A stretch of DNA of 51,530 bases. Origin: a virus. Lineage: Duplodnaviria > Caudoviricetes. The position numbers were made by a program, and so were the translations under genes. The notes below the pieces were generated by a model, which had not been told where the DNA came from, made no database searches, and saw nothing but the letters and a program-made list of their open reading frames with translations. How positions within the stretch are numbered: position 1 is the stretch's first letter; every line of letters begins with the position of its first letter. The stretch spans positions 1 through 51,530 of the IMG/VR virus record IMGVR_UViG_3300015360_000058; one strand, 5' to 3'. Of the stretch, positions 14,661-39,144 are shown in pieces.

Positions 14661-15266
14661 ATGGCGAAACTCTATCCCAAAGTTGTGACGGTTTTTCGTC
14701 CGGCGATTTTATCGCGCGGCCCTTGGCCCTCCGGTAAGCCGGTCGGTGTAACGGTCCACCACTCAGCCGACCGCGACCTCGCGCAGGTTGAGGCTTACGG
14801 CGCAGCTGAAAAAATTGGCTACCACATTATTATCGACCGCGACGGGAGCGCTCACCAGACGGCTCACCTCGACGCGTGCGTTGCCCATGCTGGGAAAGCG
14901 TCATGGAACAAGGTGTCGCCTAACCGCGGTCACGTTGCCGTCTGCGTGCTGTCATGGGGTCGCGTTAAAAGAGAGGGCGACAAGTTCACGACGTGGACGA
15001 CCGAAGAGCTGCCGCACGACCAGATTGCTCACCGACAGGGCGGCTACTGGGACGAGGCGACGGAGATCCAAGAGTTGGCCCTTTGGGATTGCTTGGAGTG
15101 GCTCTGCCGCGAGTTCGGCATCTTACCTGATAACGTCTGTGGTCACGACGAATGCGCGCTCCCGAAGGGTCGCAAGGACGATCCGGGCGGGGTCCTGTCT
15201 TTGACGATGACCGAGGTGCGCGCGTATTTGACCAGAACAATTGACCCTCAACGTCAAAAAATATAA
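14661..15266 (+). CDS. Endolysin, N-acetylmuramoyl-L-alanine amidase (Amidase_2)
   Basis: VTVHHSA, GYHIIIDRDG, AHAG, GHDE...RKDDPG zinc amidase motifs. Confidence 0.88.
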   Translation: MAKLYPKVVTVFRPAILSRGPWPSGKPVGVTVHHSADRDLAQVEAYGAAEKIGYHIIIDRDGSAHQTAHLDACVAHAGKASWNKVSPNRGHVAVCVLSWGRVKREGDKFTTWTTEELPHDQIAHRQGGYWDEATEIQELALWDCLEWLCREFGILPDNVCGHDECALPKGRKDDPGGVLSLTMTEVRAYLTRTIDPQRQKI

Positions 15267-15292
15267 CATATTAATTATTGATTTTTTAAAAA

Positions 15293-15736
15293 ATGGTGAA
15301 ATTTATGATTACCTGTTCAAGGCGCATACAATTCTGCTCTGGTCATAGAGTTCTTAACCATGAATCAAAGTGTGCAAATCCTCATGGTCATAACTACGTT
15401 ATGTGGATTCACGCTAGAGCACCCTCATTAGACGGTATAGGAAGAGTTATCGACTTCTCGGTTCTTAAAGCAACCGTTGGAGAATGGGTTATTGATAACT
15501 GGGATCATACGTTTATCGCTAACGATCAAGATATAGATCTGATCAATGCAATTAAACCGTTCCATAAGAATAAAAAAATATGGGAAGCGCCATTTAACCC
15601 AACCGCTGAAAATATGGCTGAATATATTCTAAAAACTGTTTGTCCAATTGTTTTAAAAAACTCTGGAGTAGAAGTTTTTCACATCGAACTCTTTGAAACG
15701 GAGAACTGCAAAGCAGATGCAATATTACATCAATGA
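15293..15736 (+). CDS. queD: 6-carboxy-5,6,7,8-tetrahydropterin synthase
   Basis: F.SGHR, KCANPHGHNY, IDFS, WDH, PTAENMA, ETENC motifs. Confidence 0.93.
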   Translation: MVKFMITCSRRIQFCSGHRVLNHESKCANPHGHNYVMWIHARAPSLDGIGRVIDFSVLKATVGEWVIDNWDHTFIANDQDIDLINAIKPFHKNKKIWEAPFNPTAENMAEYILKTVCPIVLKNSGVEVFHIELFETENCKADAILHQ

Positions 15737-16304
15737 TTTATTCTGGACGGTTCAAGGAGAGGGCTTTCACGCTGGCCGACGTGCATTATTTGTTAGAATG
15801 CCTTACTGCAATCTCGCTTGTTCGTGGTGTGATACTTCGTTTAACTCATATCAAAAAATTGAAGTTGATGAATTTCAAAAAATAGCAACCAGCGAAAGCG
15901 CAAAGTTTGCAGTCATCACGGGCGGTGAACCTATGATGAACAGGCACACTCCTATCATTGTTGCTCATCTTAAGAATCTAGGCTTTGAAATAGCTTGCGA
16001 GACAAATGGAACCTTTCCAATCGTTCCAGGAATTGATTACCCTACGTGCTCACCGAAGAGGGATGCAGACTACTTTATCCATCCAGACGCCTTGCCGGTG
16101 GTAAAAGAATTTAAATACGTTGTAGACGAAGGGTTTGATTTCTCGATCCTTGAAAAACACGCTGTTGATGACGGCCGAAGATATAGCCTGTCTCCTGAGT
16201 TTGGCAATATGCAAGCCTCTGTAGAGAAGATTATTGAATATATTAAAGGCAATCCACAGTGGCGGCTGAACTTGCAGACTCATAAATGGATCGGGGCAAA
16301 ATAA
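15717..16304 (+). CDS. queE: 7-carboxy-7-deazaguanine synthase (radical SAM)
   Basis: F.TVQGEG..AG, CNLACSWCDT (CxxxCxxC), TGGEP, ETNGT, SPK, QTHK. Confidence 0.94.
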   Translation: MQYYINDLFWTVQGEGFHAGRRALFVRMPYCNLACSWCDTSFNSYQKIEVDEFQKIATSESAKFAVITGGEPMMNRHTPIIVAHLKNLGFEIACETNGTFPIVPGIDYPTCSPKRDADYFIHPDALPVVKEFKYVVDEGFDFSILEKHAVDDGRRYSLSPEFGNMQASVEKIIEYIKGNPQWRLNLQTHKWIGAK

Positions 16305-16849
16305 TGTCAGAAGAATTAATAGCTCAAATTATAAATCTTGTTGGTGATGATAGTAGTAGAGAAGGTGTTCTTGACACTCCGAAGAGGGTGATAAAATCTT
16401 GGAAAGAGTTATATTCAGGATATAAACAAGACCCTAATATCATTCTTGAAAGAGTTTTTACAGACGAGTCCTACGATCAAATGATCGTGTTAAAAGATAT
16501 CGACTTCTACTCAACATGTGAACACCATATGCAACCCTTTTTTGGCAAGGTACATATTGCCTACATCCCGAATAATAATAAGGTTGTGGGTCTATCTAAG
16601 CTCGCGCGGTTAGTGGAATGCTTTAGTCGCCGCCTTCAAATACAGGAAAGAATGACGCAGCAAATAGCGCAAACTTTTTTTGATATTGTTAAACCAAAAG
16701 GCGTTGGCGTTGTTGTTGAAGGAAAGCATTTTTGTATGGTTGCAAGAGGCGTCCAAAAACAAAATGGCGTAATGAAGACTAGCGCGTTAAAAGGGTTGTT
16801 TAAAGAGGACCCCGATTGTAGGAATGAATTTTTAAAGGCAATCAGTTAA
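16304..16849 (+). CDS. folE: GTP cyclohydrolase I
   Basis: TPKRV, CEHH, GLSKLAR, QIQERMT, HFCMVARG motifs. Confidence 0.96.
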   Translation: MSEELIAQIINLVGDDSSREGVLDTPKRVIKSWKELYSGYKQDPNIILERVFTDESYDQMIVLKDIDFYSTCEHHMQPFFGKVHIAYIPNNNKVVGLSKLARLVECFSRRLQIQERMTQQIAQTFFDIVKPKGVGVVVEGKHFCMVARGVQKQNGVMKTSALKGLFKEDPDCRNEFLKAIS

Positions 16850-17190
16850 TGAATAAAAAATTCATAGTAGTTCGATGGCAGTTTGCAGGATTTCATGCTT
16901 ATGAAAATGCTCCTGAGCAGGTAAGTTTTCTTAAGACAACGCACAGGCATTTGTTTAAATGCTCTGCCAAGATTGAAGTTAAACACGATAACCGTGAGCT
17001 TGAATTTTTTATGGTTCAAACAGATTTAACCAACGTGTTTAAAGCCGGCAATCACGATAACAAATCATGCGAAATGATAGCTGAAAACATACTGTCGTAT
17101 ATTGAAAATCGGTACGGGTATGATCGTAAAATAGAAATAGAAGTATCGGAAGATGGCGAAAATTCTGCCGTCGTTGAAAATGCATTATGA
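16849..17190 (+). CDS. dpdL: T-fold QueD paralog, DpdL-like 7-carboxy-7-deazaguanine decarboxylase
   Basis: GFH, LKTTHRHLF (LxxxHRHxF), ELEF, SCEMIA, VSEDGEN; embedded in the deazaguanine operon. Confidence 0.7.
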   Translation: MNKKFIVVRWQFAGFHAYENAPEQVSFLKTTHRHLFKCSAKIEVKHDNRELEFFMVQTDLTNVFKAGNHDNKSCEMIAENILSYIENRYGYDRKIEIEVSEDGENSAVVENAL

Positions 17191-18068
17191 AGATTTTTTT
17201 GGCTGGATGCGAAGTGTTACATCAATTTGATGCGTGTACTAGTGTTAATATAAAAAATGTACTTATTTCTTATTACCATGTAAAAAAAACAGAAGACTTT
17301 TCTAAAAAAATCATTAATAGGCTAGAACAAATAGACAATCTTATTTGTGACTCTGGCTTGTTTACATTAATGTTTGGCGCTGGCAAGGGTGCAACACACA
17401 CACTATCAAGCATGAAAAAATATACTGTCGACTATATAAAGTATGCGAAAACAATTGATCATAAAAAAGTTACATTTGTTGAATCAGATGTTCATAAATT
17501 ACTCGGTATGGGCGCGGTGTTTGAACTGAGAAAAATGTTTGAAGATTCAGGCCTTAAAGTAATTTATACTTGGCATATTGAAGAAGGAATCGAAGGCCTT
17601 TACCGTCTGGCAGAAAAATATGAATATATAGCTATCTCGGTTCCTGAACTAAGAGTCTTGTTTACAGGCAAGAAAATGAGATATCAGGACGGCGTGAAAG
17701 ACCTTTTAAAGAAAATAAGAACCAACGTAAAAAGCTACCCAAAGATTCACTTGCTCGGCAATACCATCCAAGAAACAATGGAAACAAACTTAGCCTATTC
17801 TTGTGACTCAACCTCTTATCTCTCAGGAGTCAAATACGGAAATTGCGTTGTTTATAAAGACGGCAAACTTTCTCAAGCGCACATTCGTTCAACTGAAATA
17901 ACTGAGCGAATTTTAAAACTTGAAAACATGCTGCCCGGTATAAGTAAGATTATACAGGATCATTCCATGAAAAATAAAATGTGGTTTAAACAAGTCGCTA
18001 TCTCTGCACATGCTTATTCTCAATACCAAAACTATCTCGATAGAAATTATAAATTTATAGGCGGTTGA
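17187..18068 (+). CDS. dpdA: DpdA-like (TGT-fold) 7-deazaguanine DNA-modification enzyme
   Basis: DSGLFT, IHLLG and SCDSTSY motifs of TGT/DpdA barrels; operonic with folE/queD/queE. Confidence 0.75.
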   Translation: MKIFLAGCEVLHQFDACTSVNIKNVLISYYHVKKTEDFSKKIINRLEQIDNLICDSGLFTLMFGAGKGATHTLSSMKKYTVDYIKYAKTIDHKKVTFVESDVHKLLGMGAVFELRKMFEDSGLKVIYTWHIEEGIEGLYRLAEKYEYIAISVPELRVLFTGKKMRYQDGVKDLLKKIRTNVKSYPKIHLLGNTIQETMETNLAYSCDSTSYLSGVKYGNCVVYKDGKLSQAHIRSTEITERILKLENMLPGISKIIQDHSMKNKMWFKQVAISAHAYSQYQNYLDRNYKFIGG

Positions 18069-18069
18069 T

Positions 18070-18753
18070 ATGGATATTAGAATTAATTATGAAATAGTTT
18101 CTATAGATCGTGTAAAGCCAAACGCTTGGAATCCAAATATACAAACCGATTTCATATTCGAACATGAAATAAAGTCTATTAAAAAACACGGATTCATTGC
18201 GCCCATTATCGTTAGGGAGTTAGACAACGGCACGCTTGAAATTGTTGACGGAGAGCATCGTTACAAGGCGGCACTTAAATTAGGCTCTGACAAAATAGCG
18301 GTTAATAATTTAGGCAAGATTGATATTAAAGACTCAAAAGCGCTAACCGTTATTATGAACGAAGTTAGAGGCAAGGCAGATACTTTTAAAATGGGCGAGT
18401 TGATTAAAGACCTAAACAATTCTTTTGGCATGGACTTTATTTTAGATTCGATGCCAATGACTGAGATAGAAATAAACAACATGTTGGGCAATGCCTCAAT
18501 CGACTGGGACGCGGTTACACCTGATTCAACTAATTCAAGTGATTCAACTAACAACCCAGCACCACCAAAAGACGCTGAACATTCAACATTGTCTTTTCAC
18601 GTGCCAGCGTATATTGCCGAACAATTTAACGAGCAGCTGCAAAGGTTTAAAACGCTTCTGTTTCCTGATGACATCAACGTGCAGGACACAATGCCATTGC
18701 AAGCAATGATTGAAATATTACGCATAACGCCAGACGAGGATATAATTGATTAA
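18070..18753 (+). CDS. ParB/Srx-like N-terminal domain protein
   Basis: PNAWNPN, SIKKHGF..PIIVR, IVDGEHRYKA motifs. Confidence 0.85.
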   Translation: MDIRINYEIVSIDRVKPNAWNPNIQTDFIFEHEIKSIKKHGFIAPIIVRELDNGTLEIVDGEHRYKAALKLGSDKIAVNNLGKIDIKDSKALTVIMNEVRGKADTFKMGELIKDLNNSFGMDFILDSMPMTEIEINNMLGNASIDWDAVTPDSTNSSDSTNNPAPPKDAEHSTLSFHVPAYIAEQFNEQLQRFKTLLFPDDINVQDTMPLQAMIEILRITPDEDIID

Positions 18754-19279
18754 GAGTTATATTTTAATCGCCTTATATCTTGCAGCAATTGTTGCTGCGA
18801 ATAATATTGTTACTTATATGGGTCCGTCTGGACTTTTTATAACAGCAACATTTCTAATACCATTTGATTTAATCGCACGAGATCAACTGCAAGAAAATTG
18901 GCGCGGCAGTTACATGCTTCCTAAGATGGCGGCAGTAATATGTTTAGGCTCAATACTGGCCTATTTGTTTAATAGCGATACCAAACTAGTGTCTGCAGCG
19001 AGTGCAGTTAGTTTTTTAATTGCTGGTTCGATAGACTGTTTTTTGTATACGATACTTGACGGCAAGAAAAAATTCATAAAAATGAACTTGTCTAACCTTG
19101 GCGCGTCCATAGCCGACAGTTTTATTTTTCAATGGATAGCTTTCGGCGCAGTCTCTTACACGATTGCATGGCAACAAATAACTCTTAAGTTACTTGGTGG
19201 CCTTTTTTGGTCGGTAATTTTTGTTAAGGTTTACAACCGCGCACTAGCATCACGCGATACTTTACGCCATCGCAAGTAA
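18746..19279 (+). CDS. yhhQ: Queuosine-precursor transporter (YhhQ/VUT family)
   Basis: Multi-TM protein; AANN, DLIARD, ASAVSF, SN...S.ADS.IF..IAFG motifs. Confidence 0.8.
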   Translation: MIKSYILIALYLAAIVAANNIVTYMGPSGLFITATFLIPFDLIARDQLQENWRGSYMLPKMAAVICLGSILAYLFNSDTKLVSAASAVSFLIAGSIDCFLYTILDGKKKFIKMNLSNLGASIADSFIFQWIAFGAVSYTIAWQQITLKLLGGLFWSVIFVKVYNRALASRDTLRHRK

Positions 19280-19412
19280 GGGTCGCTTTAACGCGGTCTC
19301 CGTTAGCTTTTAAGAGCTTGCGGATCTCTTCTACGTCCTCTTTGCAGCCAGCGTAGACAATCGCGTTATCGCCGTTTTTGCCCTGTTTTAACCAGTCATG
19401 TATGAGCTGCAT
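19224..19412 (-). CDS. Small hypothetical protein
   Basis: AAGGAGG RBS just upstream of ATG on the minus strand; faces the divergent promoter region. Confidence 0.6.
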   Translation of the reverse strand: MQLIHDWLKQGKNGDNAIVYAGCKEDVEEIRKLLKANGDRVKATLTCDGVKYRVMLVRGCKP

Positions 19413-19420
19413 AGGCCCTC

Positions 19421-19600
19421 CTTATATACTTATCTGCTTTTTTGGCCTATTTATTTAACAATTTTTTATTCGCCTGTAATTACCAGTAGTTACATGTGAT
19501 TTTATTTTGCTTGTAATAGAACCATATAACTCTATAGAATCATTAGAATAATACGATTTATTAATAAAAAGTGTTAAAAAAGCCGATAAGGGTATATAGG
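19421..19600. promoter_or_regulatory. Divergent promoter pair with sigma28 (FliA)-like -10 boxes
   Basis: Plus strand AAAAAAGCCGATAAG (GCCGATAA 19582-19589); minus strand AAAAAAGCAGATAAG (19430-19437); TAAA elements upstream of both. Confidence 0.5.
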
Positions 19601-19631
19601 GCAAGCAAGAACTACTTAAGGGGATGAGCAA

Positions 19632-19976
19632 ATGAAAAATGAAAAGATAAGTGTTTCAGATAAAGATTCTCTATTTACGATTGTTAATGCACAGCTAGAT
19701 AAGCTGGGAATGCCTGCTCAGTTTAGACTCGACAATGATACGAACGGCATTTCAAAAGTTCTGGGCAATGTTATTATTGATCCCTCTGAGTTAGGTCTTT
19801 TGGCTCCAGGTATTAATAAGATGAATTTGGAAATAAAAGCTGGATCTGAAGGGAGAAACAAAGTTGGTTACGGAAGTATTAGTCTCTACTATACCTACCA
19901 ATCCCCATCTCGCACTAGTAGTAATAGTATTAGCGTTCACTACAACTATGAGAAGGGTAAATGGCAAGTTAGTTAA
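19632..19976 (+). CDS. Hypothetical early protein
   Basis: ORF with AAGGGG RBS after AT-rich intergenic region. Confidence 0.6.
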   Translation: MKNEKISVSDKDSLFTIVNAQLDKLGMPAQFRLDNDTNGISKVLGNVIIDPSELGLLAPGINKMNLEIKAGSEGRNKVGYGSISLYYTYQSPSRTSSNSISVHYNYEKGKWQVS

Positions 19977-20037
19977 TAACTCTGCTTCTAATAAGTCAAT
20001 CACGCAAGATTCTAAACACTAACTAAGGAGCTCACTC

Positions 20038-20256
20038 ATGAAAAGCAAAATTGGAATTGACGAGATGCTATCAAAATTTGACGAATACGCTCGCGAGAGA
20101 ATTAAAGAAGACGCTGAAAACTTAGTCGGCAATTTGACTAGTAAACAGAACGCTCAATACCTTTCTGCGTGTCTTGAAATGTTTTTAGACGAATTAGATT
20201 TAGAATTTTTAGGAGCGGCTTATTTGGAGTCTAGCGGGCGATGCAAAGGAGAATAG
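20038..20256 (+). CDS. Hypothetical protein
   Basis: TAAGGAG RBS. Confidence 0.6.
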   Translation: MKSKIGIDEMLSKFDEYARERIKEDAENLVGNLTSKQNAQYLSACLEMFLDELDLEFLGAAYLESSGRCKGE

Positions 20257-20306
20257 ATACATTTTCATTTTGCGGGATTGTGGTTCGCATATTTTAGTTT
20301 TAGGCG

Positions 20307-20519
20307 GTGATAGTTGATTCGCTTACAGAAGAAGATATTGTGCGATTTAGATATCTAAAAAGCGAATTTGATCCGGTTGTCTCAGCTGCCCAAAAAAGTG
20401 AGTTTCACTCAGTAATCAAAATCACTACTTTTGACGGTGCCAGTACTAAGCATTTGAATATCACAGCTGAAATGATTATCGAGATATACAAAATTCTAGC
20501 GAAAGAGGTGAACGAATGA
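20307..20519 (+). CDS. Hypothetical protein
   Basis: ATGA overlap with next gene; start uncertain. Confidence 0.45.
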   Translation: MIVDSLTEEDIVRFRYLKSEFDPVVSAAQKSEFHSVIKITTFDGASTKHLNITAEMIIEIYKILAKEVNE

Positions 20520-28374: not shown

Positions 28375-28755
28375 ATGAATTTAAAGACGACTGTGCTAGA
28401 TGGCGAGATATGGGAATTGGTTAAGCAAGAAGCCGAAAAAAACCAAATTAATCATACGGCTATGGTTAGAAGAATCCTTTATCAGTACTTTGGCAAGGAA
28501 TCTCCAGCTCTAAAAATAGGCAGACCAGTATCGCCAGCCTTGATTAAATTTAAGGCTAAAGAGAAAGAATTAAAAGACAACATTAGATCTGAGGCGAAAG
28601 AGTTAAAGGCTAATATTAAAAAGATAAGAATTAAAGCTATGACTGAAGAGAAAGAATTAAAAGCTAAGGCTGCAAAAAAAATACGCTACCACGCGATCTC
28701 TGATCCTCTCCCGCCCGAGCTGTGGGTAGACGAAGATGGAATTCTTCACGCCTAA
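28375..28755 (+). CDS. Basic protein, possible ribbon-helix-helix DNA-binding protein
   Basis: GGAGGT RBS; N-terminal strand-helix-helix pattern; Lys-rich repeats. Confidence 0.45.
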   Translation: MNLKTTVLDGEIWELVKQEAEKNQINHTAMVRRILYQYFGKESPALKIGRPVSPALIKFKAKEKELKDNIRSEAKELKANIKKIRIKAMTEEKELKAKAAKKIRYHAISDPLPPELWVDEDGILHA

Positions 28756-29999: not shown

Positions 30000-30493
30000 A
30001 GTTTGAAATTGATATGGGCGAGCTTTTTTTAGAAGAGGGCAGTTCCTCTTCAACGGTTAACGAGGCTATAAAAGATGCGGTAGTGGACAGAATTATTACA
30101 AAGAGCCTCGGCAAAATCGAAGACGGGATACTTGAAAAAGTAGAATTAGCTTTTAGTGATCTAATAAGGAGCAGAGTAGAAGAAATTTTAAAGCCGATTG
30201 GCGATAGTTTCTTGGACCACGAATATAAAGAAAAAAGTGCTTGGGGTAAGGATCTCTCAACTTGGACATTGCGAGGAAAGATTAGCGACGAGATTGCTAA
30301 GACGTGCGAGTTCAAAAAACAAAGCGATTACTGCCCTAGTTCGCAAAATAATTTGTTTACGAAAAAGATACTTGAGTGTGTAGACGCTAAATTGTCTGGG
30401 TTCAAACAAGAGTTTGCTGCTCAAGTTGACAAAGAGCTAACAGTCAAAGCTATGCAGTTCGCACTAGAGCACATGAAAAGTAAACTCAAATGA
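29996..30493 (+). CDS. Hypothetical protein
   Basis: ATGA-coupled helical ORF. Confidence 0.6.
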   Translation: MKFEIDMGELFLEEGSSSSTVNEAIKDAVVDRIITKSLGKIEDGILEKVELAFSDLIRSRVEEILKPIGDSFLDHEYKEKSAWGKDLSTWTLRGKISDEIAKTCEFKKQSDYCPSSQNNLFTKKILECVDAKLSGFKQEFAAQVDKELTVKAMQFALEHMKSKLK

Positions 30494-30525
30494 CCCTCCA
30501 AGCGTCACGTTGTGAGGAGGCGGGG

Positions 30526-30723
30526 ATGAAAGTTGACCTTGATGAAATGTAAGAATGGTACGTAGGAGAAAATTCAAACCATACCAACGTAGCTTTGATG
30601 ATTGCAGAACTAAGGGCCTCTAGGGAAGTTGTAGACGCAGTCATAGCGCGCGAACATGCAGGATATGAGATTGGTGTTGTTGTGACTGCTGCATTAAATA
30701 AATACGAGGAGGCGGTGAAATGA
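30526..30723 (+). pseudogene. MKVD paralog 2 with in-frame TAA
   Basis: MKVDLDEM*EWY...IAELRASREVV...GYEIGVVVTAALNKYEEAVK; GAGGAGG RBS; stop at 30550-30552. Confidence 0.7.
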
Positions 30724-30998
30724 AAGTTGATATTGAATTGTTAGAAAGATTGGCGAGTGAAAGAACTAAAGGCGTTTGGGCGATAGGGGATCTTTATGAA
30801 GAAAGAATTAATAAGTTTTCAAGGAGTGACGAGGATTTTTTCATTGCCGTCGAAAAAAACATTGACGCGATGATTGCAGAACTCCAAGCCTCTAGGGAAG
30901 TTGTTGCAGCGGCAGAGCAATTAGAAGAATTTTTTAGTGACGAGGATAGAGACATGATTGAAAAGGTTCTTGAAAAATATAAGGAGGCGGTGAAATGA
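30720..30998 (+). CDS. Hypothetical protein, MKVD paralog 3
   Basis: MKVDIE...MIAELQASREVV...EAVK. Confidence 0.6.
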   Translation: MKVDIELLERLASERTKGVWAIGDLYEERINKFSRSDEDFFIAVEKNIDAMIAELQASREVVAAAEQLEEFFSDEDRDMIEKVLEKYKEAVK

Positions 30999-31231
30999 AA
31001 AAATACCTAATCACGTTTATAAAAAACTATGAGGGAGATTTTCCCACTGACATATGGTGTAACGACATTACTGACCTAGAGCCAGACGCTTGGTTACTCT
31101 GGGCCATGGAAAACTTTTGGCCCGAACCAAATACAAAGCCTCCCATGATGCGAGCGAAGATTGTTTTAGTTTCGGCGATTGAAATAACTTCGGGCGACGC
31201 GGCTGATAAACTAGCGGAAATGTTTATATGA
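30995..31231 (+). CDS. Hypothetical protein
   Basis: ATGA-coupled. Confidence 0.55.
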   Translation: MKKYLITFIKNYEGDFPTDIWCNDITDLEPDAWLLWAMENFWPEPNTKPPMMRAKIVLVSAIEITSGDAADKLAEMFI

Positions 31232-31770
31232 CTTTAAAAGAACTTATGGGCATTGCAGTTAACGGAGACGGCAGGAAATTTGCTAACCTCTTTTTTGTCG
31301 ACTGTTGGTTTGAGCCAATACTTTTGGCGCAAGGAATTTGGTTTGGCAGATGTCAGGACGGCAGTGAAGGCAGTCGGCACCAAGACTCGATAGGTTGGTA
31401 TGGATGCATTAGGCCTAAAGAAATTGAAAGGAAATCTGAAATGACTTTAAAGGAATTGATGGGCGATTTAGATAGAGGCGATGGGAGAAGGTTTGCTAAC
31501 GAATCTTTTGCGTTTTGGTTTGAGCCAATATTTTGGGCGAATGGTATTTGGTGCGGGAAAGACCAAGACGGCAATGCGACAAGCTGGCATGACGAAACAC
31601 CCGGCTGGAAAGAATACGCAGAGCCTAAGAAAAAAATAGAGCTTTGGAAGTGGGCGTATAAGGGGATTGATGATAAATGGGCTGAAACAAATGGGTATCA
31701 CGCCAAACAACCAGCCGGAAATACCGGATGGATCCGAATCGAAGGCAGCCGAATAGAGGTTGAAGAGTAA
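31228..31770 (+). CDS. Hypothetical protein with internal tandem duplication
   Basis: MTLKELMG...DGR.FAN...WFEPI...GIW.G..QDG occurs twice (31228, 31441). Confidence 0.6.
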   Translation: MTLKELMGIAVNGDGRKFANLFFVDCWFEPILLAQGIWFGRCQDGSEGSRHQDSIGWYGCIRPKEIERKSEMTLKELMGDLDRGDGRRFANESFAFWFEPIFWANGIWCGKDQDGNATSWHDETPGWKEYAEPKKKIELWKWAYKGIDDKWAETNGYHAKQPAGNTGWIRIEGSRIEVEE

Positions 31771-31986
31771 CTCGACACGCCCAGACTTGCGCGGCGATAA
31801 ATAATGATGCTATCCTCGTTAAAACAATTAACGCGTCGGGTGCGTCGGATGTGGATAGACTTACTGTGAAGTTACCTATTGCGTCATGGAGTACCGAGCC
31901 GGGAAAAGTTTTTTCGAGATATTTAGAATCGTCATATTCGTGAACTCTACTTGGCCCGGGTGTCTTTACAAGGTTTTTAAAGAGCT

Positions 31987-32256
31987 ATGAACTTGTATGC
32001 GGCCTTTTGCGGAGAGCACGGTTTGGCCTTACACTTCACCGTCGCCGAGAAATCCTTTTGCAGGATGTGCAACTATGAAGTCGGTTTCGGACGTGATAAA
32101 AGAAAAAATAAAGTCCCACAAACAAACGTGTCCGGCCAAGAACAATTGGTACATCATGGGACACCGAGTCAACGGCCTCCTGGCGGAAGTCTGCACGGCG
32201 TGCAGGAAAGTTCTTCACGTACATCACCTCGAGAAAAAACCAAGGAGGACCGATGA
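31987..32256 (+). CDS. Hypothetical Cys/His-containing protein
   Basis: ATGA-coupled to 32253; an overlapping alternative frame exists. Confidence 0.35.
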   Translation: MNLYAAFCGEHGLALHFTVAEKSFCRMCNYEVGFGRDKRKNKVPQTNVSGQEQLVHHGTPSQRPPGGSLHGVQESSSRTSPREKTKEDR

Positions 32257-37368: not shown

Positions 37369-38280
37369 TTATTTCATGCCTAAGTGTTCTTGCAAGTCTT
37401 CTATACCGTCGACCACGGCGTAGGCGGCGTAGTTACCTATCCCGTTACACTTAGAGCCGTCGCGTGCCTTGTAGGCTATCCTCATATAGCCTTTTTCTCC
37501 CCAACCCTTACCCCAACTGTTACGCATAAGCCAGTAACCGCCGCCGCCGTACTTCGCGTCGTCGACCCAGCCGTCTAGGACTGTCATGTGGTTAGTAGAC
37601 GACGATCCGCAGGCTGTAAAAACTCCGCTCTTGTAGCTTTGAAAAGCTCCGCTACCGTCCACATCCACGGCGACGGGACCGTGCTTTAATATAGCCGCCT
37701 TGATTTGGTCGGTCGACGCACCGTGTTTATCGCCGACGTAGGCCCACCGCGTAACGGTCGCGACGGCTTTACCGCCCGCCTTACACGCCGAGTTGCGCGC
37801 GAGGTAGGGGTCAAAAGACTCGTCTGGGACGCCAACTTTTATGCAGTTAAACGCGGTAAAAAAACCACCGGAACACGTGCCCTCGTTACAGCAACTTGAC
37901 ACGAGGTGTTGCTCTGAAAAGTCGACCCGATCTTGAATAGGCTTAGTGATGCGGGTAAGACTTTCCACGACAGCGACCGTCGCGAAACTCCAACAGCTAC
38001 CGCAGCCGCCTTGATTTCGTATCGGCTGTAGGCGAGCCTCGTCGTTCCAGTCGTAAGAATTAGGTAATGTTTCCATCGTCGCTACGACGTCGAACTCGGC
38101 GGTTTCCTGCCACCCCTCGGCCGGATGCGACAGGCCGGTCGCGTAGGTCGTTTCGTTGTCGCTTTCGGGAGGATTTTTAGGAGCTACTGGAAGATTGTAA
38201 GGATGCATTTCGTTATTAATAACAACGTAACCGCACGCCGAAACCACAATGCTTAAAACTAAATAATATAAGTATTTCAT
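37369..38280 (-). CDS. Papain-family (C1A) cysteine protease with lipoprotein signal
   Basis: QGGCGSCWSF, SEQHLV, NHM, RNSWG..WGE.GY; VVSAC lipobox. Confidence 0.93.
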   Translation of the reverse strand: MKYLYYLVLSIVVSACGYVVINNEMHPYNLPVAPKNPPESDNETTYATGLSHPAEGWQETAEFDVVATMETLPNSYDWNDEARLQPIRNQGGCGSCWSFATVAVVESLTRITKPIQDRVDFSEQHLVSSCCNEGTCSGGFFTAFNCIKVGVPDESFDPYLARNSACKAGGKAVATVTRWAYVGDKHGASTDQIKAAILKHGPVAVDVDGSGAFQSYKSGVFTACGSSSTNHMTVLDGWVDDAKYGGGGYWLMRNSWGKGWGEKGYMRIAYKARDGSKCNGIGNYAAYAVVDGIEDLQEHLGMK

Positions 38281-38286
38281 AACCGA

Positions 38287-39144
38287 TTACTCCTGAAGTT
38301 CCGACGCGACTTGACAGGAAAAAAGTTCGCTGTATTTCTTACGGCAACCTTCCGGGTCTGTCAAAGAAAGGCGCGGGTTTCCATAGACACACTGGTTTAC
38401 GTTTACCAAGGTTTGAGCGCACCAAGGCGGCACGGGCGAGGGGTCTGGTTGCGCAGCTCCGCGACAATTTTCTGCGTCGACAGCAACGCCGCAAATTTTA
38501 ACGTTGTTTTCAACCGACCACGAAACGTAAAAATCACGCGCCGTCTTCGTGTAAACTGCCGGCAGGTAGGACGTCTCCCTGATGTCGCCTCGACTGTTGA
38601 TGCCTGCGATTTTATAGACTCCGTCGGCTCCTTTAAAAAACGCAGACCCGCCGGAGTCGCCAAAGCACAACGCCGCGTTTCCTTTCGTCACGATATCGTT
38701 GTCGCCGCTAGGAAGTTTAACGACAGGAGCTTCGCCGATACGAAACACGTCGTCGCTACCGCCGCCGCCGCCAGATTGTACGCAACCCATACCGGCTAGA
38801 AGGAGCTTAGTTCCGACCTTAATTTCGTCGCCGTTAGTCATAACGCTTTCGTAGAAGGCTACTTTAACGTCGTCCGAAAAAACGCACAGAGCGTAGTCTG
38901 AAGTAGCGTCGGTTTTATAGTTTTTGTGGTGAGTGCAGGTAGCTATTTTTTTAACGCCTTCGACCGTAATACTTGCGGTTCGACCGTTGCCGACGCAGTG
39001 GGCGGCCAGTTGGAGCACCCGACTGCCGAGTAGTGTACCAGTACATCGACTGTTGCCTTGGCTTGTTGTAAAGCTAGCAGGCCAATCTTTACGGTCTGCG
39101 GGCGCCCCACCTATAAGTGTAGGGTAGATTGGCGCTTCTAACAT
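38287..39144 (-). CDS. Trypsin-family (S1) serine protease, catalytic part
   Basis: LIGG mature start, CTGTL, AAHC, DYAL, CFGDSGG. Confidence 0.92.
   Translation of the reverse strand: MLEAPIYPTLIGGAPADRKDWPASFTTSQGNSRCTGTLLGSRVLQLAAHCVGNGRTASITVEGVKKIATCTHHKNYKTDATSDYALCVFSDDVKVAFYESVMTNGDEIKVGTKLLLAGMGCVQSGGGGGSDDVFRIGEAPVVKLPSGDNDIVTKGNAALCFGDSGGSAFFKGADGVYKIAGINSRGDIRETSYLPAVYTKTARDFYVSWSVENNVKICGVAVDAENCRGAAQPDPSPVPPWCAQTLVNVNQCVYGNPRLSLTDPEGCRKKYSELFSCQVASELQE

What the first reader, a model, noticed from the sequence alone, without database searches (positions are those of the whole stretch)
15293..19279. QueC-less 7-deazaguanine DNA-modification cassette with a DpdL-like decarboxylase
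Seen: a tightly coupled operon queD-queE-folE-[second T-fold protein with LKTTHRHLF]-[TGT-fold protein]-ParB-like-yhhQ. No queC, queF or archaeosine synthase was recognised anywhere in this nearly complete genome. Established: FolE, QueD and QueE make 7-carboxy-7-deazaguanine (CDG), QueC is needed for preQ0, and phage DpdL (T-fold, LxxxHRHxF) is proposed to decarboxylate CDG. Inference: this phage puts the rare unsubstituted 7-deazaguanine (or CDG) into its DNA as an anti-restriction measure.
Basis: partly seen in the sequence, partly recalled or inferred. Interest (0 to 1): 0.85.

Follow-up and report, generated by a model that had tools for sequence, protein, structure and literature searches.

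The report
QueC-less 7-deazaguanine DNA-modification operon in phage
A phage from a microbial-mat metagenome carries a seven-gene operon that most likely replaces guanine in its own DNA with plain 7-deazaguanine; it is a new variant of a system first described in 2023.

Summary
Window 15293-19279 is a translationally coupled operon: queD-queE-folE-dpdL-dpdA-parB-yhhQ. The virus record is about 99% complete, and no QueC, separate QueF or ArcS-type gene was found in it.

The 113-aa ORF is a real DpdL:
- It matches both published DpdLs (phiST CGPG_00067 and ACP17 gp125).
- It keeps the LxxxHRHxF motif.
- It folds as a QueD-like T-fold.
- It falls on the DpdL side of a 100/100 branch that separates DpdL from QueD.

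The transglycosylase is not phiST's DpdA3. It belongs to a large unannotated clade (890 homologs) distantly related to phage 9g DpdA1. In related IMG/VR loci this clade has DpdL upstream (23 of 25) and a ParB-like gene downstream (24 of 25). That ParB-like protein is homologous to gp1 of the dPreQ0 phage Rosebush.

The best reading is CDG to 7-deazaguanine to dDG in the DNA. DpdL's chemistry has never been demonstrated, and host QueC could divert CDG to preQ0.

I rate it a new variant of a known kind, of moderate interest. DpdL itself is common in metagenomes (3,236 cluster representatives).

The parts
15293..15736 (+). QueD (6-carboxytetrahydropterin synthase), with the CANPHGH motif
   Evidence: PF01242 E 6.4e-28. 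TIGR03367 scores 77.8 bits, below the equivalog cut-off of 89.25. phrog_2389 4.2e-37. CxxxHGH is present, and the ORF lies in the QueD clade.
15693..16304 (+). QueE (radical-SAM 7-carboxy-7-deazaguanine synthase). The likelier start is the in-frame ATG at 15717.
   Evidence: Radical_SAM 7e-10. TIGR04508 6.9e-32, at 111 bits, below the cut-off of 240. phrog_2076 1.7e-30. CNLACSWC is visible in the translation. Junction read.
16286..16849 (+). FolE (GTP cyclohydrolase I). An alternative ATG at 16304 overlaps the QueE stop as TAATG.
   Evidence: PF01227 9e-73. TIGR00063 scores 245 bits against a cut-off of 181.6. Junction read.
16849..17190 (+). DpdL (QueD-paralogous T-fold protein, proposed CDG decarboxylase), with the LKTTHRHLF motif
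   Evidence: tblastn hits phiST CGPG_00067 (29% identity, 3e-7) and ACP17 gp125 (41%, 2e-16). Invariant residues are H16, L28, H32, R33, H34, F36, R49, E52, S73, E75, V99, E101 and D102. AF2 pLDDT is 94, and Foldseek top hits are QueD/PTPS at TM 0.68-0.76. The tree places it in the DpdL clade at 100/100.
17187..18068 (+). DpdA-type DNA-guanine transglycosylase, in a divergent DpdA1-like clade (alignment A2)
   Evidence: phrog_887 8.8e-25; phrog_887 also holds phage 9g DpdA at 2.5e-100. hhalign of A2 against 9g DpdA gives probability 97.9%, E 4.4e-13. AF2 pLDDT is 94. Foldseek finds TGT/ArcTGT at E 4e-7. VIA-align gives Z 18.0, rmsd 3.7 A, over 259 residues against T. maritima TGT.
18070..18753 (+). 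ParB-like protein (ParB/Noc-type N-terminal NTPase-fold domain, DGEHR motif), a conserved neighbour of this DpdA clade
   Evidence: PF02195 5.6e-11 and phrog_723 1.1e-29. The family profile hits Noc 7nfu at 2.1e-14 and Spo0J 6sdk at 5.6e-10. A ParB-like gene is downstream of DpdA in 24 of 25 related loci. It is homologous to Rosebush gp1: hhalign 95.3%, E 2.1e-8.
18746..19279 (+). YhhQ/Vut_1-like membrane protein (putative 7-deazapurine precursor transporter)
   Evidence: PF02592 1.1e-6, at 29.6 bits against a cut-off of 27.2. TIGR00697 scores only 15.8 bits against a cut-off of 50.95. phrog_4899 4.7e-28. It is not a conserved part of the module: present in 2 of 25 related loci.

Best explanation
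This is a phage-encoded, QueC-less 7-deazaguanine DNA-modification operon.

Proposed pathway:
1. FolE, QueD and QueE convert GTP to 7-carboxy-7-deazaguanine (CDG). This is established pathway knowledge.
2. The QueD paralog DpdL removes the carboxyl group to give 7-deazaguanine (DG). This is inferred, following the proposal of Cui et al. 2023.
3. A DpdA1-like TGT-fold transglycosylase exchanges guanine in double-stranded phage DNA for DG after replication, giving dDG. This is inferred from homology to phage 9g DpdA.
4. The ParB-like protein that always accompanies this DpdA clade probably acts as a DNA-binding or NTP-dependent accessory. This is inferred, by analogy with bacterial DpdB and from homology to Rosebush gp1.
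5. The YhhQ-like protein may import 7-deazapurine precursors. This is a weak inference.

The modified DNA would resist host restriction enzymes.
For: - Gene identities and translational coupling are established.
- DpdL membership is established. It is homologous to both founding DpdLs. LxxxHRHxF is invariant in 24 of 24 aligned relatives and present in 30 of 31 DpdL-like rows. It has a T-fold model. The DpdL/QueD split has 100/100 support.
- QueC is absent from the 99%-complete genome. It is also absent from 28 of 28 related or reference records: 25 IMG/VR records (5 of them at least 90% complete) plus Roos, phiST and ACP17. None of 80 further DpdL loci has it within about 6 kb.
- DpdL lies upstream of this DpdA clade in 23 of 25 loci; the other 2 are cut at the contig edge. 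It abuts DpdA in 18 of those 23. So DpdL and DpdA are selected together.
- The DpdA has a full TGT fold and is homologous to 9g DpdA.
- phiST-type phages with FolE/QueD/QueE/DpdL and no QueC contain dDG in place of dG by LC-MS/MS (PMC10516641, section 15, read in full).
- Rosebush carries a homologous ParB-like gp1 next to its DpdA. Its DNA has dPreQ0 at about 28% of G (PMC6884629 passages).
Against: - DpdL's decarboxylase activity has never been shown. Cui et al. co-expressed phiST or ACP17 dpdL with the cognate dpdA in E. coli and detected no dDG (PMC10516641, section 16).
- Every phage with measured dDG uses DpdA3, which is unrelated in sequence to this DpdA (hhalign probability 0.2%).
- The DpdA1 members tested so far insert preQ0 (PMC10516641 introduction passages). 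The host is unknown and may supply QueC.
- Faecalibacterium phage Roos keeps ParB-DpdL-DpdA-Vut_1 but has no FolE, QueD, QueE or QueC. DpdL's substrate there cannot be phage-made CDG.
- Many other DpdL lineages sit next to glycosyltransferase-like, PRTase-like or kinase-like genes. DpdL chemistry may therefore be broader than assumed.
- No chemical or read-level data exist for this phage. The public runs that hold it are stored as contigs only.
Confidence: 0.6

Rival explanations
1. The product is dPreQ0 (or a derivative) made with host QueC. The phage boosts CDG supply with FolE/QueD/QueE, host QueC converts CDG to preQ0, and the DpdA1-like enzyme inserts preQ0 as 9g, CAjan and Rosebush DpdAs do. 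DpdL would then have another, accessory role.
For: The DpdA is related to 9g DpdA1, and the ParB-like partner to Rosebush gp1; both of those phages work through preQ0 (PMC6884629 passages). A YhhQ-like preQ0-transporter homolog is present. DpdL activity is unproven.
Against: QueC is missing from all 26 records of this DpdA clade: the window, the 25 IMG/VR records and Roos. DpdL is present in every one that has upstream sequence. That pattern reads as QueC being replaced by DpdL, not as reliance on the host. DpdL-linked DpdAs differ from QueC-linked or singleton relatives at a conserved motif, HLLG against HG(F/M)x: 9 of 9 against 0 of 3.
Confidence: 0.15
2. The product is dCDG. The DpdA inserts CDG itself into DNA. 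DpdL either acts afterwards on DNA or is not a decarboxylase.
For: CDG is the last product the encoded canonical enzymes can make. Vibrio phage VH7D DpdA2 inserts CDG at low efficiency, and dCDG occurs in STSV-2 (PMC10516641 passages).
Against: phiST, which has the same FolE/QueD/QueE/DpdL set, showed no dCDG and full dDG. The invariant metal-site-like residues of DpdL argue for an active enzyme on a small T-fold ligand.
Confidence: 0.1
3. The product is a different, still unknown 7-deazaguanine derivative. DpdL would catalyse some reaction other than simple decarboxylation, or act on an imported substrate.
For: Roos has the ParB-DpdL-DpdA-Vut_1 core without any CDG pathway. DpdL is fused to P-loop kinase-like domains in 9 of 38 long homologs. 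It neighbours GT-like genes in 42 of 80 and PRTase-like genes in 20 of 80 other loci.
Against: The only chemical datum for a DpdL phage is dDG. No extra tailoring enzyme is seen in this operon.
Confidence: 0.1
4. The cassette serves tRNA queuosine or folate metabolism, or the ParB-like protein serves partition, and DNA is not modified.
For: FolE, QueD, QueE and YhhQ are also tRNA-queuosine pathway genes. ParB_N domains occur in partition proteins.
Against: The genome has no tRNA genes and no QueC or QueF, and QueA/QueG were not seen among the operon genes. The TGT-fold protein belongs with phage DNA transglycosylases rather than Pfam TGT: no PF01702 hit, but a phrog_887 hit. The ParB gene tracks DpdA, not a ParA.
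Confidence: 0.03

Closest known systems
Cellulophaga phage phiST dDG system (FolE, QueD, QueE, DpdL, DpdA3; Cui et al. 2023, PMC10516641)
   Same: Both have a QueC-less FolE/QueD/QueE set plus a homologous DpdL with the LxxxHRHxF motif. The gene order QueD-QueE-FolE upstream of DpdL is similar.
   Different: The transglycosylase is unrelated in sequence to DpdA3 (BLASTP not significant; hhalign probability 0.2%). phiST has MazG and two extra ORFs, and no ParB-like or YhhQ-like gene in the region shown. DpdL identity is only 29%.
Mycobacterium phage Rosebush dPreQ0 cassette (ParB-like gp1, DpdA gp2, QueC, QueD, QueE, FolE)
   Same: A ParB-like gene is adjacent to DpdA alongside the CDG pathway. 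The ParB-like proteins are homologous over about 168 columns (hhalign 95.3%).
   Different: Rosebush has QueC and no DpdL, and makes dPreQ0. Its DpdA is only marginally similar to this clade (hhalign probability 20.9%, E 0.0011 over 50 columns).
Enterobacteria phage 9g DpdA (DpdA1)
   Same: Both have a TGT-fold DNA transglycosylase in the same PHROG (phrog_887). hhalign gives 97.9%, with shared DSG, H..EE, HxxG and SCDS(S/T)SW motifs.
   Different: Identity is only about 21-25%. 9g has Gat-QueC and makes dG+, with no DpdL and no ParB neighbour. The motif HGFG in 9g is HLLG here.
Faecalibacterium phage Roos (orf76-79)
   Same: This is the only cultured phage found with this DpdA clade. It has ParB-like, DpdL-like, DpdA-like and Vut_1 genes side by side.
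   Different: Roos lacks FolE, QueD, QueE and QueC. Its ParB lies upstream, not downstream. Its description paper does not mention the module: 0 hits for five terms.
Bacterial Dpd system DpdA/DpdB (PMC10164549)
   Same: A TGT-fold transglycosylase is paired with a ParB-fold protein. DpdB is a ParB-superfamily ATPase stimulated by DpdA-DNA (passages).
   Different: No PADLOC Dpd model matches either window protein at E <= 1. The window's ParB-like protein is 227 aa and most resembles Noc/Spo0J N-domains and the ParB N-domains fused to methyltransferases. No DpdC-K genes are present.

Membership tests
DpdL (proposed CDG decarboxylase, Cui et al. 2023) | Sequence homology to the founding members phiST CGPG_00067 and ACP17 DpdL | tested here: met
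   tblastn gives 29% identity and E 3e-7 to phiST at the CGPG_00067 locus, and 41% and 2e-16 to ACP17 gp125. All lie in one clade with 100/100 support against QueD.
DpdL (proposed CDG decarboxylase, Cui et al. 2023) | Signature LxxxHRHxF in place of QueD's CxxxHGH (motif as given in PMC10516641, section 16) | tested here: met
   LKTTHRHLF aligns with phiST LSLNHRHLF and ACP17 LGSPHRHLF. L28, H32, R33, H34 and F36 are invariant in 24 of 24 sequences. The co-resident QueD keeps CANPHGH.
DpdL (proposed CDG decarboxylase, Cui et al. 2023) | QueD-like T-fold | tested here: met
   The AF2 model has pLDDT 94. Foldseek finds SCO6650, E. coli QueD 4ntk and P. horikoshii PTPS 2dj6 at TM 0.68-0.76 with probability 1.00. 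hhalign of the DpdL profile against the QueD profile gives 94.8%.
DpdL (proposed CDG decarboxylase, Cui et al. 2023) | Genomic context: with DpdA, FolE, QueD and QueE, and without QueC | tested here: met
DpdL (proposed CDG decarboxylase, Cui et al. 2023) | Catalyses CDG to 7-deazaguanine | not testable with these tools
   This has not been demonstrated for any member. Heterologous tests in the source paper were negative.
DpdA (DNA-guanine transglycosylase), DpdA1-like | TGT (TIM-barrel) fold over the whole protein | tested here: met
   pLDDT 94. Foldseek finds ArcTGT and TGT at E 4e-7 to 1e-5. VIA-align gives Z 18.0, rmsd 3.7 A, with 259 of 293 residues aligned.
DpdA (DNA-guanine transglycosylase), DpdA1-like | Detectable sequence homology to an experimentally validated phage DpdA (9g) | tested here: met
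   phrog_887 matches at 8.8e-25, and the same family matches 9g DpdA at 2.5e-100. hhalign gives 97.9%, E 4.4e-13, with 25% identity over 182 columns.
DpdA (DNA-guanine transglycosylase), DpdA1-like | Conserved catalytic aspartates (the DSG and CDS motifs). Their mapping to TGT Asp102/Asp280 is recalled, not taken from a call. | tested here: inconclusive
   D55-S56-G57 and S208 are invariant, and D207 nearly so, across the clade and 9g/BCD7. No residue-level superposition on TGT was obtained.
DpdA3 (phiST / Campylobacter phage type) | Sequence similarity to phiST CGPG_00065 | tested here: not met
   BLASTP best E is 0.91. hhalign probability is 0.2%. The A2 HMM finds nothing in phiST. phiST DpdA3 falls in phrog_20335, not phrog_887.
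DpdA2 (Vibrio phage nt-1 type) | Sequence similarity to nt-1 DpdA2 | tested here: inconclusive
   nt-1 is not among the 11 phage records hit by tblastn at E <= 1e-3. phrog_887 has no match in nt-1. I made no direct profile comparison with the nt-1 protein.
DpdB (ParB-fold ATPase partner of bacterial DpdA) | ParB/Srx-type N-terminal NTP-binding domain with a DGxxR-type motif | tested here: met
   PF02195 5.6e-11. The profile hits Noc and Spo0J CTPase domains, with vdGehR aligned to Noc iaGERR. G61 is invariant, and H63 and R64 are at least 90% conserved.
DpdB (ParB-fold ATPase partner of bacterial DpdA) | Sequence membership in the DpdB family | tested here: not met
   No PADLOC Dpd model matches at E <= 1; the best hits are the N-domains of MTase_II models. 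I infer that PADLOC holds a DpdB model only from the presence of its DpdA model.
DpdB (ParB-fold ATPase partner of bacterial DpdA) | Required with DpdA for transglycosylation; ATPase stimulated by DpdA-DNA | not testable with these tools
   Only conserved adjacency is shown: 24 of 25 loci.
YhhQ / COG1738 (Vut_1) preQ0 transporter | Match to the family model above its curated cut-off | tested here: inconclusive
   Pfam PF02592 scores 29.6 bits against a cut-off of 27.2, so it is met. The NCBIfam equivalog TIGR00697 scores 15.8 bits against a cut-off of 50.95, so it is not met.

The most novel reading that the evidence does not exclude
The DpdA clade found here would be a previously unnamed DpdA subfamily specialised for unsubstituted 7-deazaguanine. 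Its marks are the DSGLFT(L/M)MFGAG and HLLG motifs, in contrast with HG(F/M)x in relatives that have QueC or no linked pathway gene. It would work only together with its ParB-like NTPase-fold partner. ParB-DpdL-DpdA(-YhhQ) would then be a portable four-gene core, as in phage Roos, that can convert host-made or imported CDG into dDG without any phage CDG pathway.
Probability: 0.3. Interest if true: 0.6.

Novelty: new variant of a known kind. Interest (0 to 1): 0.45.

Why it matters
- DpdL is the only unvalidated step in the pathway to dDG, and published reconstitution attempts failed.
- This compact seven-gene operon pairs DpdL with a DpdA1-like enzyme from the subfamily that has worked in E. 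coli, plus a conserved ParB-like partner. It is a fresh and probably more tractable system for testing DpdL chemistry and for asking whether some phage DpdAs need a ParB-fold helper, as bacterial DpdA needs DpdB.
- The survey also suggests that DpdL-type, QueC-less systems are common in environmental phages and occur in at least four gene contexts. Plain 7-deazaguanine DNA may therefore be widespread, not rare.

Tried and rejected
**Complex prediction.** Complex prediction on DpdA (A2) plus ParB-like (A5) returned no verdict: score 0.29 against a mark of 0.32, and the controls were not run. It counts neither for nor against binding.

**Fusion (Rosetta-stone) searches.**
- The long DpdA1-like proteins of BCD7 (757 aa) and BRock (500 aa) have no ParB-like part by Pfam or BLASTP.
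- A search for longer homologs of the window's DpdA (514-2000 aa) found none at E <= 1e-5. The tool itself rates this as weak evidence.

**Sequence searches that found nothing useful.**
- blastn of the cassette against 50,697 phage records gave no match.
- The first related-loci run, with the single DpdA protein, found no relative. The alignment-based run succeeded.
- Profile searches of the DpdA family against PDB sequences gave nothing for A2 at E <= 1 and only chance hits (G-alpha, RanBP10, a Fab) for A6. I therefore could not map active-site residues onto TGT by sequence. Solved bacterial DpdA structures did not appear among the rows shown, which is no evidence about relatedness.

**Signals at chance level.** Promoter scans were at chance (15 found against 14.4 expected). 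Terminator-like sites were only 6 against 3.3. No operon boundary is claimed from them.

**Sequencing runs.** Only two microbial-mat metagenome runs hold the stretch. They are kept as contigs, and one may be the source. Contigs cannot show base modification, so I did not use read laying.

**Sampling bias.** The DpdL-based locus sample came from a peptide pattern that excludes window-like DpdL C-termini. The context frequencies are therefore not population estimates. In particular, they do not show that the window's arrangement is rare.

**Literature searches.**
- 'DpdL' with '7-deazaguanine' returned 2 records, which are two versions of one paper.
- 'CDG decarboxylase', '7-carboxy-7-deazaguanine decarboxylase', 'deoxy-7-deazaguanine' or 'DpdA3' from 2023 onward returned 5 papers. 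None characterises DpdL further, judged from titles and abstract starts.
- 'DpdA' with 'ParB', 'phage' and '7-deazaguanine' returned 6 papers. One, PMC6392294, already suggests a ParB-like dpdB homolog next to a mycobacteriophage DpdA. Another, PMC12783734, notes ParBc-domain proteins as frequent neighbours of phage DNA-modifying enzymes.

Full report
**1. The observation.**
Family searches identify them as follows:
- QueD: PF01242, 6.4e-28.
- QueE: Radical_SAM 7e-10; TIGR04508 6.9e-32; phrog_2076 1.7e-30.
- FolE: PF01227 9e-73; TIGR00063 above its cut-off.
- A 113-aa ORF with no Pfam or NCBIfam hit; phrog_17812, 'unknown function', 1.1e-21.
- A 293-aa ORF whose only real hit is phrog_887, 'queuine tRNA-ribosyltransferase', 8.8e-25.
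- A ParB_N protein: PF02195 5.6e-11.
- A weak Vut_1/YhhQ-family membrane protein: PF02592 1.1e-6.

The genes are translationally coupled: TAATG at FolE/DpdL, ATGA at DpdL/DpdA, a 1-nt gap at DpdA/ParB, and an 8-nt overlap at ParB/YhhQ.

The window is an entire IMG/VR virus record that CheckV rates 99% complete. It encodes a tape-measure protein, RecE-like exonuclease, Sak4-like annealing protein, helicase, primase, large terminase, portal, protease and major head protein. Its two ends fall in tail and head-tail genes, so a modification gene is unlikely to be hidden in the missing about 1%.

The missing pathway genes were checked directly:
- QueC (PF06508): no match, while the control matched in 14 of 14 reference genomes.
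- QueF: the only match lies inside FolE, a T-fold cross-hit.
- ArcS core DUF5591: no match.

**2. The 113-aa ORF is a DpdL.**
tblastn against 50,697 phage records found 29 records. Among them:
- Cellulophaga phage phiST at the locus annotated CGPG_00067.
- Acidovorax phage ACP17 at gp125.

These are the two proteins that Cui et al. 2023 named DpdL and tested (PMC10516641; section 16 read in full).

The motif that paper gives, LxxxHRHxF replacing QueD's CxxxHGH, is present (LKTTHRHLF) and aligns with the founders. In an alignment of the window protein with 23 IMG/VR relatives, these residues are invariant: H16, L28, H32, R33, H34, F36, R49, E52, S73, E75, V99, E101 and D102. The co-resident QueDs keep C-x3-HGH.

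Structural and profile evidence agrees:
- The AlphaFold model (pLDDT 94) is a T-fold.
- Its best Foldseek matches are PTPS/QueD structures: SCO6650, E. coli QueD 4ntk and P. horikoshii 2dj6, at TM 0.68-0.76.
- The DpdL profile matches the QueD profile at 94.8%.

A maximum-likelihood tree of 51 rows splits 31 DpdL-like proteins from 20 QueDs on one branch with 100/100 support. The DpdL side holds the window ORF, phiST DpdL, ACP17 DpdL and Roos orf77.

**3. The transglycosylase is not the phiST type.**
The 293-aa protein has 890 homologs at E <= 0.001 in the large protein collection. None carries a precomputed Pfam domain among the 120 listed.

Its fold is clear:
- The AlphaFold model has pLDDT 94.
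- Foldseek finds ArcTGT and TGT at E about 4e-7.
- VIA-align gives Z 18.0, rmsd 3.7 A, with 259 of 293 residues aligned to T. maritima TGT.

Its subfamily placement:
- It is unrelated in sequence to phiST DpdA3 (BLASTP not significant; hhalign 0.2%).
- phrog_887 contains phage 9g DpdA, the DpdA1 founder (2.5e-100).
- The family profile matches 9g DpdA at 97.9%, E 4.4e-13, 25% identity.
- An HMM of the clade finds nothing in phiST, ACP17, BUCT-ZZ01, BCSR5, RHph_I1_18 or PA5oct. It finds only Faecalibacterium phage Roos, 1 of 7 records.

I therefore call it a divergent DpdA1-like clade.

In a 12-sequence alignment, the DpdL-linked proteins (8 clade members and Roos) share DSGLFT(L/M)MFGAG and IHLLG(N/C)T. 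9g and BCD7, which have QueC-type genes, and BRock, which has no pathway gene in the region shown, have HG(F/M)x at the latter site. Whether this lines the pocket for the 7-substituent is an inference from recalled TGT structural biology. I could not obtain a residue-level mapping.

**4. Conserved neighbourhood.**
Twenty-five IMG/VR loci were retrieved with the DpdA alignment and probed by tblastn with the window's seven proteins.
- DpdL lies upstream of DpdA in 23 of 25. The other two, L019 and L020, start less than 200 nt before DpdA. DpdL abuts or overlaps DpdA in 18 of the 23 and lies 0.3-1.1 kb away in 5 (L009, L010, L012, L028, L029).
- A ParB-like gene lies downstream in 24 of 25. L009 ends just after DpdA. 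The ParB gene is duplicated in tandem in 5 loci.
- FolE appears in 20, QueE in 17, QueD in 14, and YhhQ in only 2 of 25.
- QueC is absent from all 25 underlying records, 5 of which are at least 90% complete, and from Roos, phiST and ACP17 (0 of 28).

Roos encodes ParB-like, DpdL-like, DpdA-like and a strong Vut_1 protein (2.4e-42) in a row. It has no FolE above cut-off, no QueD and no QueE.

**5. The ParB-like protein.**
Its family profile matches the N-terminal CTPase domains of Noc (7nfu, 2.1e-14) and Spo0J (6sdk, 5.6e-10), with its DG(E/N)HR motif on the GERR box. It matches no PADLOC Dpd model. It does match the ParB-type N-domains of type II methyltransferase models.

It is homologous over about 168 columns to gp1 of Mycobacterium phage Rosebush (hhalign 95.3%). 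In Rosebush, gp1 sits beside DpdA-QueC-QueD-QueE-FolE, and the DNA carries dPreQ0 at about 28% of G (PMC6884629 passages).

What the literature I read says:
- A ParB-like 'dpdB homolog' next to a mycobacteriophage DpdA was suggested in PMC6392294 (passage).
- ParBc proteins are noted as common neighbours of phage DNA-modifying enzymes in PMC12783734 (passages).
- Bacterial DpdB is a ParB-fold ATPase stimulated by DpdA-DNA (PMC10164549 passages).

So the pairing itself is not new. Its strict linkage to a DpdL-type clade is. The role I give it, as a DNA-loading or NTP-dependent helper, is inference only.

**6. Mechanism and rivals.**
Established steps: FolE, QueD and QueE make CDG, and QueC is needed for preQ0 (pathway as summarised in PMC10516641). 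Inferred steps: DpdL converts CDG to 7-deazaguanine, and the DpdA1-like enzyme, helped by the ParB-like protein, exchanges it for G in DNA.

Support comes from three things:
- The co-inheritance of DpdL with this DpdA.
- The consistent lack of QueC.
- The LC-MS/MS finding of complete dG-to-dDG replacement in phiST-type phages (section 15).

Against it:
- DpdL chemistry is unproven and reconstitution failed.
- Measured dDG phages all use DpdA3.
- The host is unknown and may supply QueC.
- Roos lacks a CDG pathway.

I put the dDG reading at 0.6, dPreQ0 through host QueC at 0.15, dCDG at 0.1, another derivative at 0.1, and no DNA modification at 0.03.

**7. How common, how new.**
A DpdL profile search of 1.84 billion cluster representatives gave 3,236 hits at E <= 0.001, of which 2,881 are at <= 1e-10. 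An IMG/VR scan gave at least 566 DpdL-encoding stretches.

In the 80 loci kept, the contexts were:
- ACP17 gp124-like glycosyltransferase-like gene: 42.
- PRTase-like gene: 20.
- DpdA3: 14.
- phrog_10773-type protein: 4.
- DpdA1-like: 2 (L066, L099).
- ParB: 1 (L066).
- QueC: 0.

The scan pattern excluded window-like DpdL C-termini, so these are not frequencies.

In the searchable literature, DpdL is discussed only in Cui et al. 2023. The main text of that paper does not mention ParB or YhhQ. Its supplements could not be read.

My conclusion: this is a correct call of a known kind of system, the DpdL-type QueC-less 7-deazaguanine DNA modification. It appears here in a variant not described in the texts I could read: a DpdA1-like clade plus a ParB-like partner, in effect a Rosebush-like cassette with QueC replaced by DpdL.

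**8. Other points.**
The cassette and the small ORFs after it are 34-43% GC. The amidase gene just upstream is 58% and the structural genes are 49-52%, which suggests lateral acquisition. The stretch occurs in contigs of two microbial-mat metagenome runs from two studies, one possibly the source.

Noticed in passing
window 15293-20519: The cassette and the following small ORFs form an AT-rich island. Per-gene GC is 0.345-0.425 and GC3 is 0.31-0.41. This contrasts with 0.583 for the amidase gene ending at 15266 and 0.49-0.52 for the structural genes. The switch is abrupt, in the 26-nt spacer 15267-15292. It suggests recent lateral acquisition of the module.
   Followed up: partly
window 37369-38280 (-) and 38287-39144 (-): Two adjacent minus-strand genes encode a papain-family cysteine protease (PF00112, 9e-50) and a trypsin-like serine protease (PF00089, 2.9e-17). 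They lie just upstream of the terminase gene, which is unusual cargo for a siphovirus-like phage.
   Followed up: no
L003 (Faecalibacterium phage Roos, PP479939.1 51706-54302): Roos carries ParB-like, DpdL-like, DpdA-like and Vut_1 genes in a row, but no FolE, QueD, QueE or QueC anywhere in its 54-kb record. DpdL's substrate there must come from the host or from import. The module is not mentioned in the phage's description paper.
   Followed up: partly
P0128 and other long DpdL homologs (alignment A7); L031 7363-8286: 38 of the best 150 DpdL-family representatives are at least 188 aa long. Nine of the 38 fuse DpdL to a P-loop nucleotide-kinase-like domain (AAA_18/33/17). In Burkholderia phage BCSR5 a thymidylate-kinase-like gene follows DpdL. 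This hints at a nucleotide-level route in other lineages.
   Followed up: partly
L042-L121 (80 DpdL loci): Other DpdL contexts differ from the window's. A glycosyltransferase-like gene (ACP17 gp124 type) occurs in 42 of 80, a xanthine-guanine-PRTase-like gene in 20 of 80, and DpdA3 in 14 of 80. GT-like neighbours raise the possibility of further hypermodification in those phages.
   Followed up: no
L066 3701-8397: This locus has the same gene set as the window in a different order (ParB, DpdA-like, DpdA-like, DpdL, YhhQ-like, QueD, QueE, FolE). It carries two tandem DpdA1-like paralogs of 289 and 294 aa.
   Followed up: no
L011, L023, L026, L027, L029: The ParB-like gene next to DpdA is duplicated in tandem in 5 of the 25 related loci.
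   Followed up: no
window 30001-32000 and 28551-28672: GC skew is strongly positive (0.257) in the 30-32 kb block of small ORFs. An imperfect 27-bp tandem repeat (4.3 copies, 65% matches) lies at 28551-28672. Either may relate to a replication origin.
   Followed up: no
L033 6992-7369 (Pseudomonas phage PA5oct gp166): This is the only one of 31 DpdL-like rows without a recognisable LxxxHRHxF motif, although it sits inside the DpdL clade.
   Followed up: no
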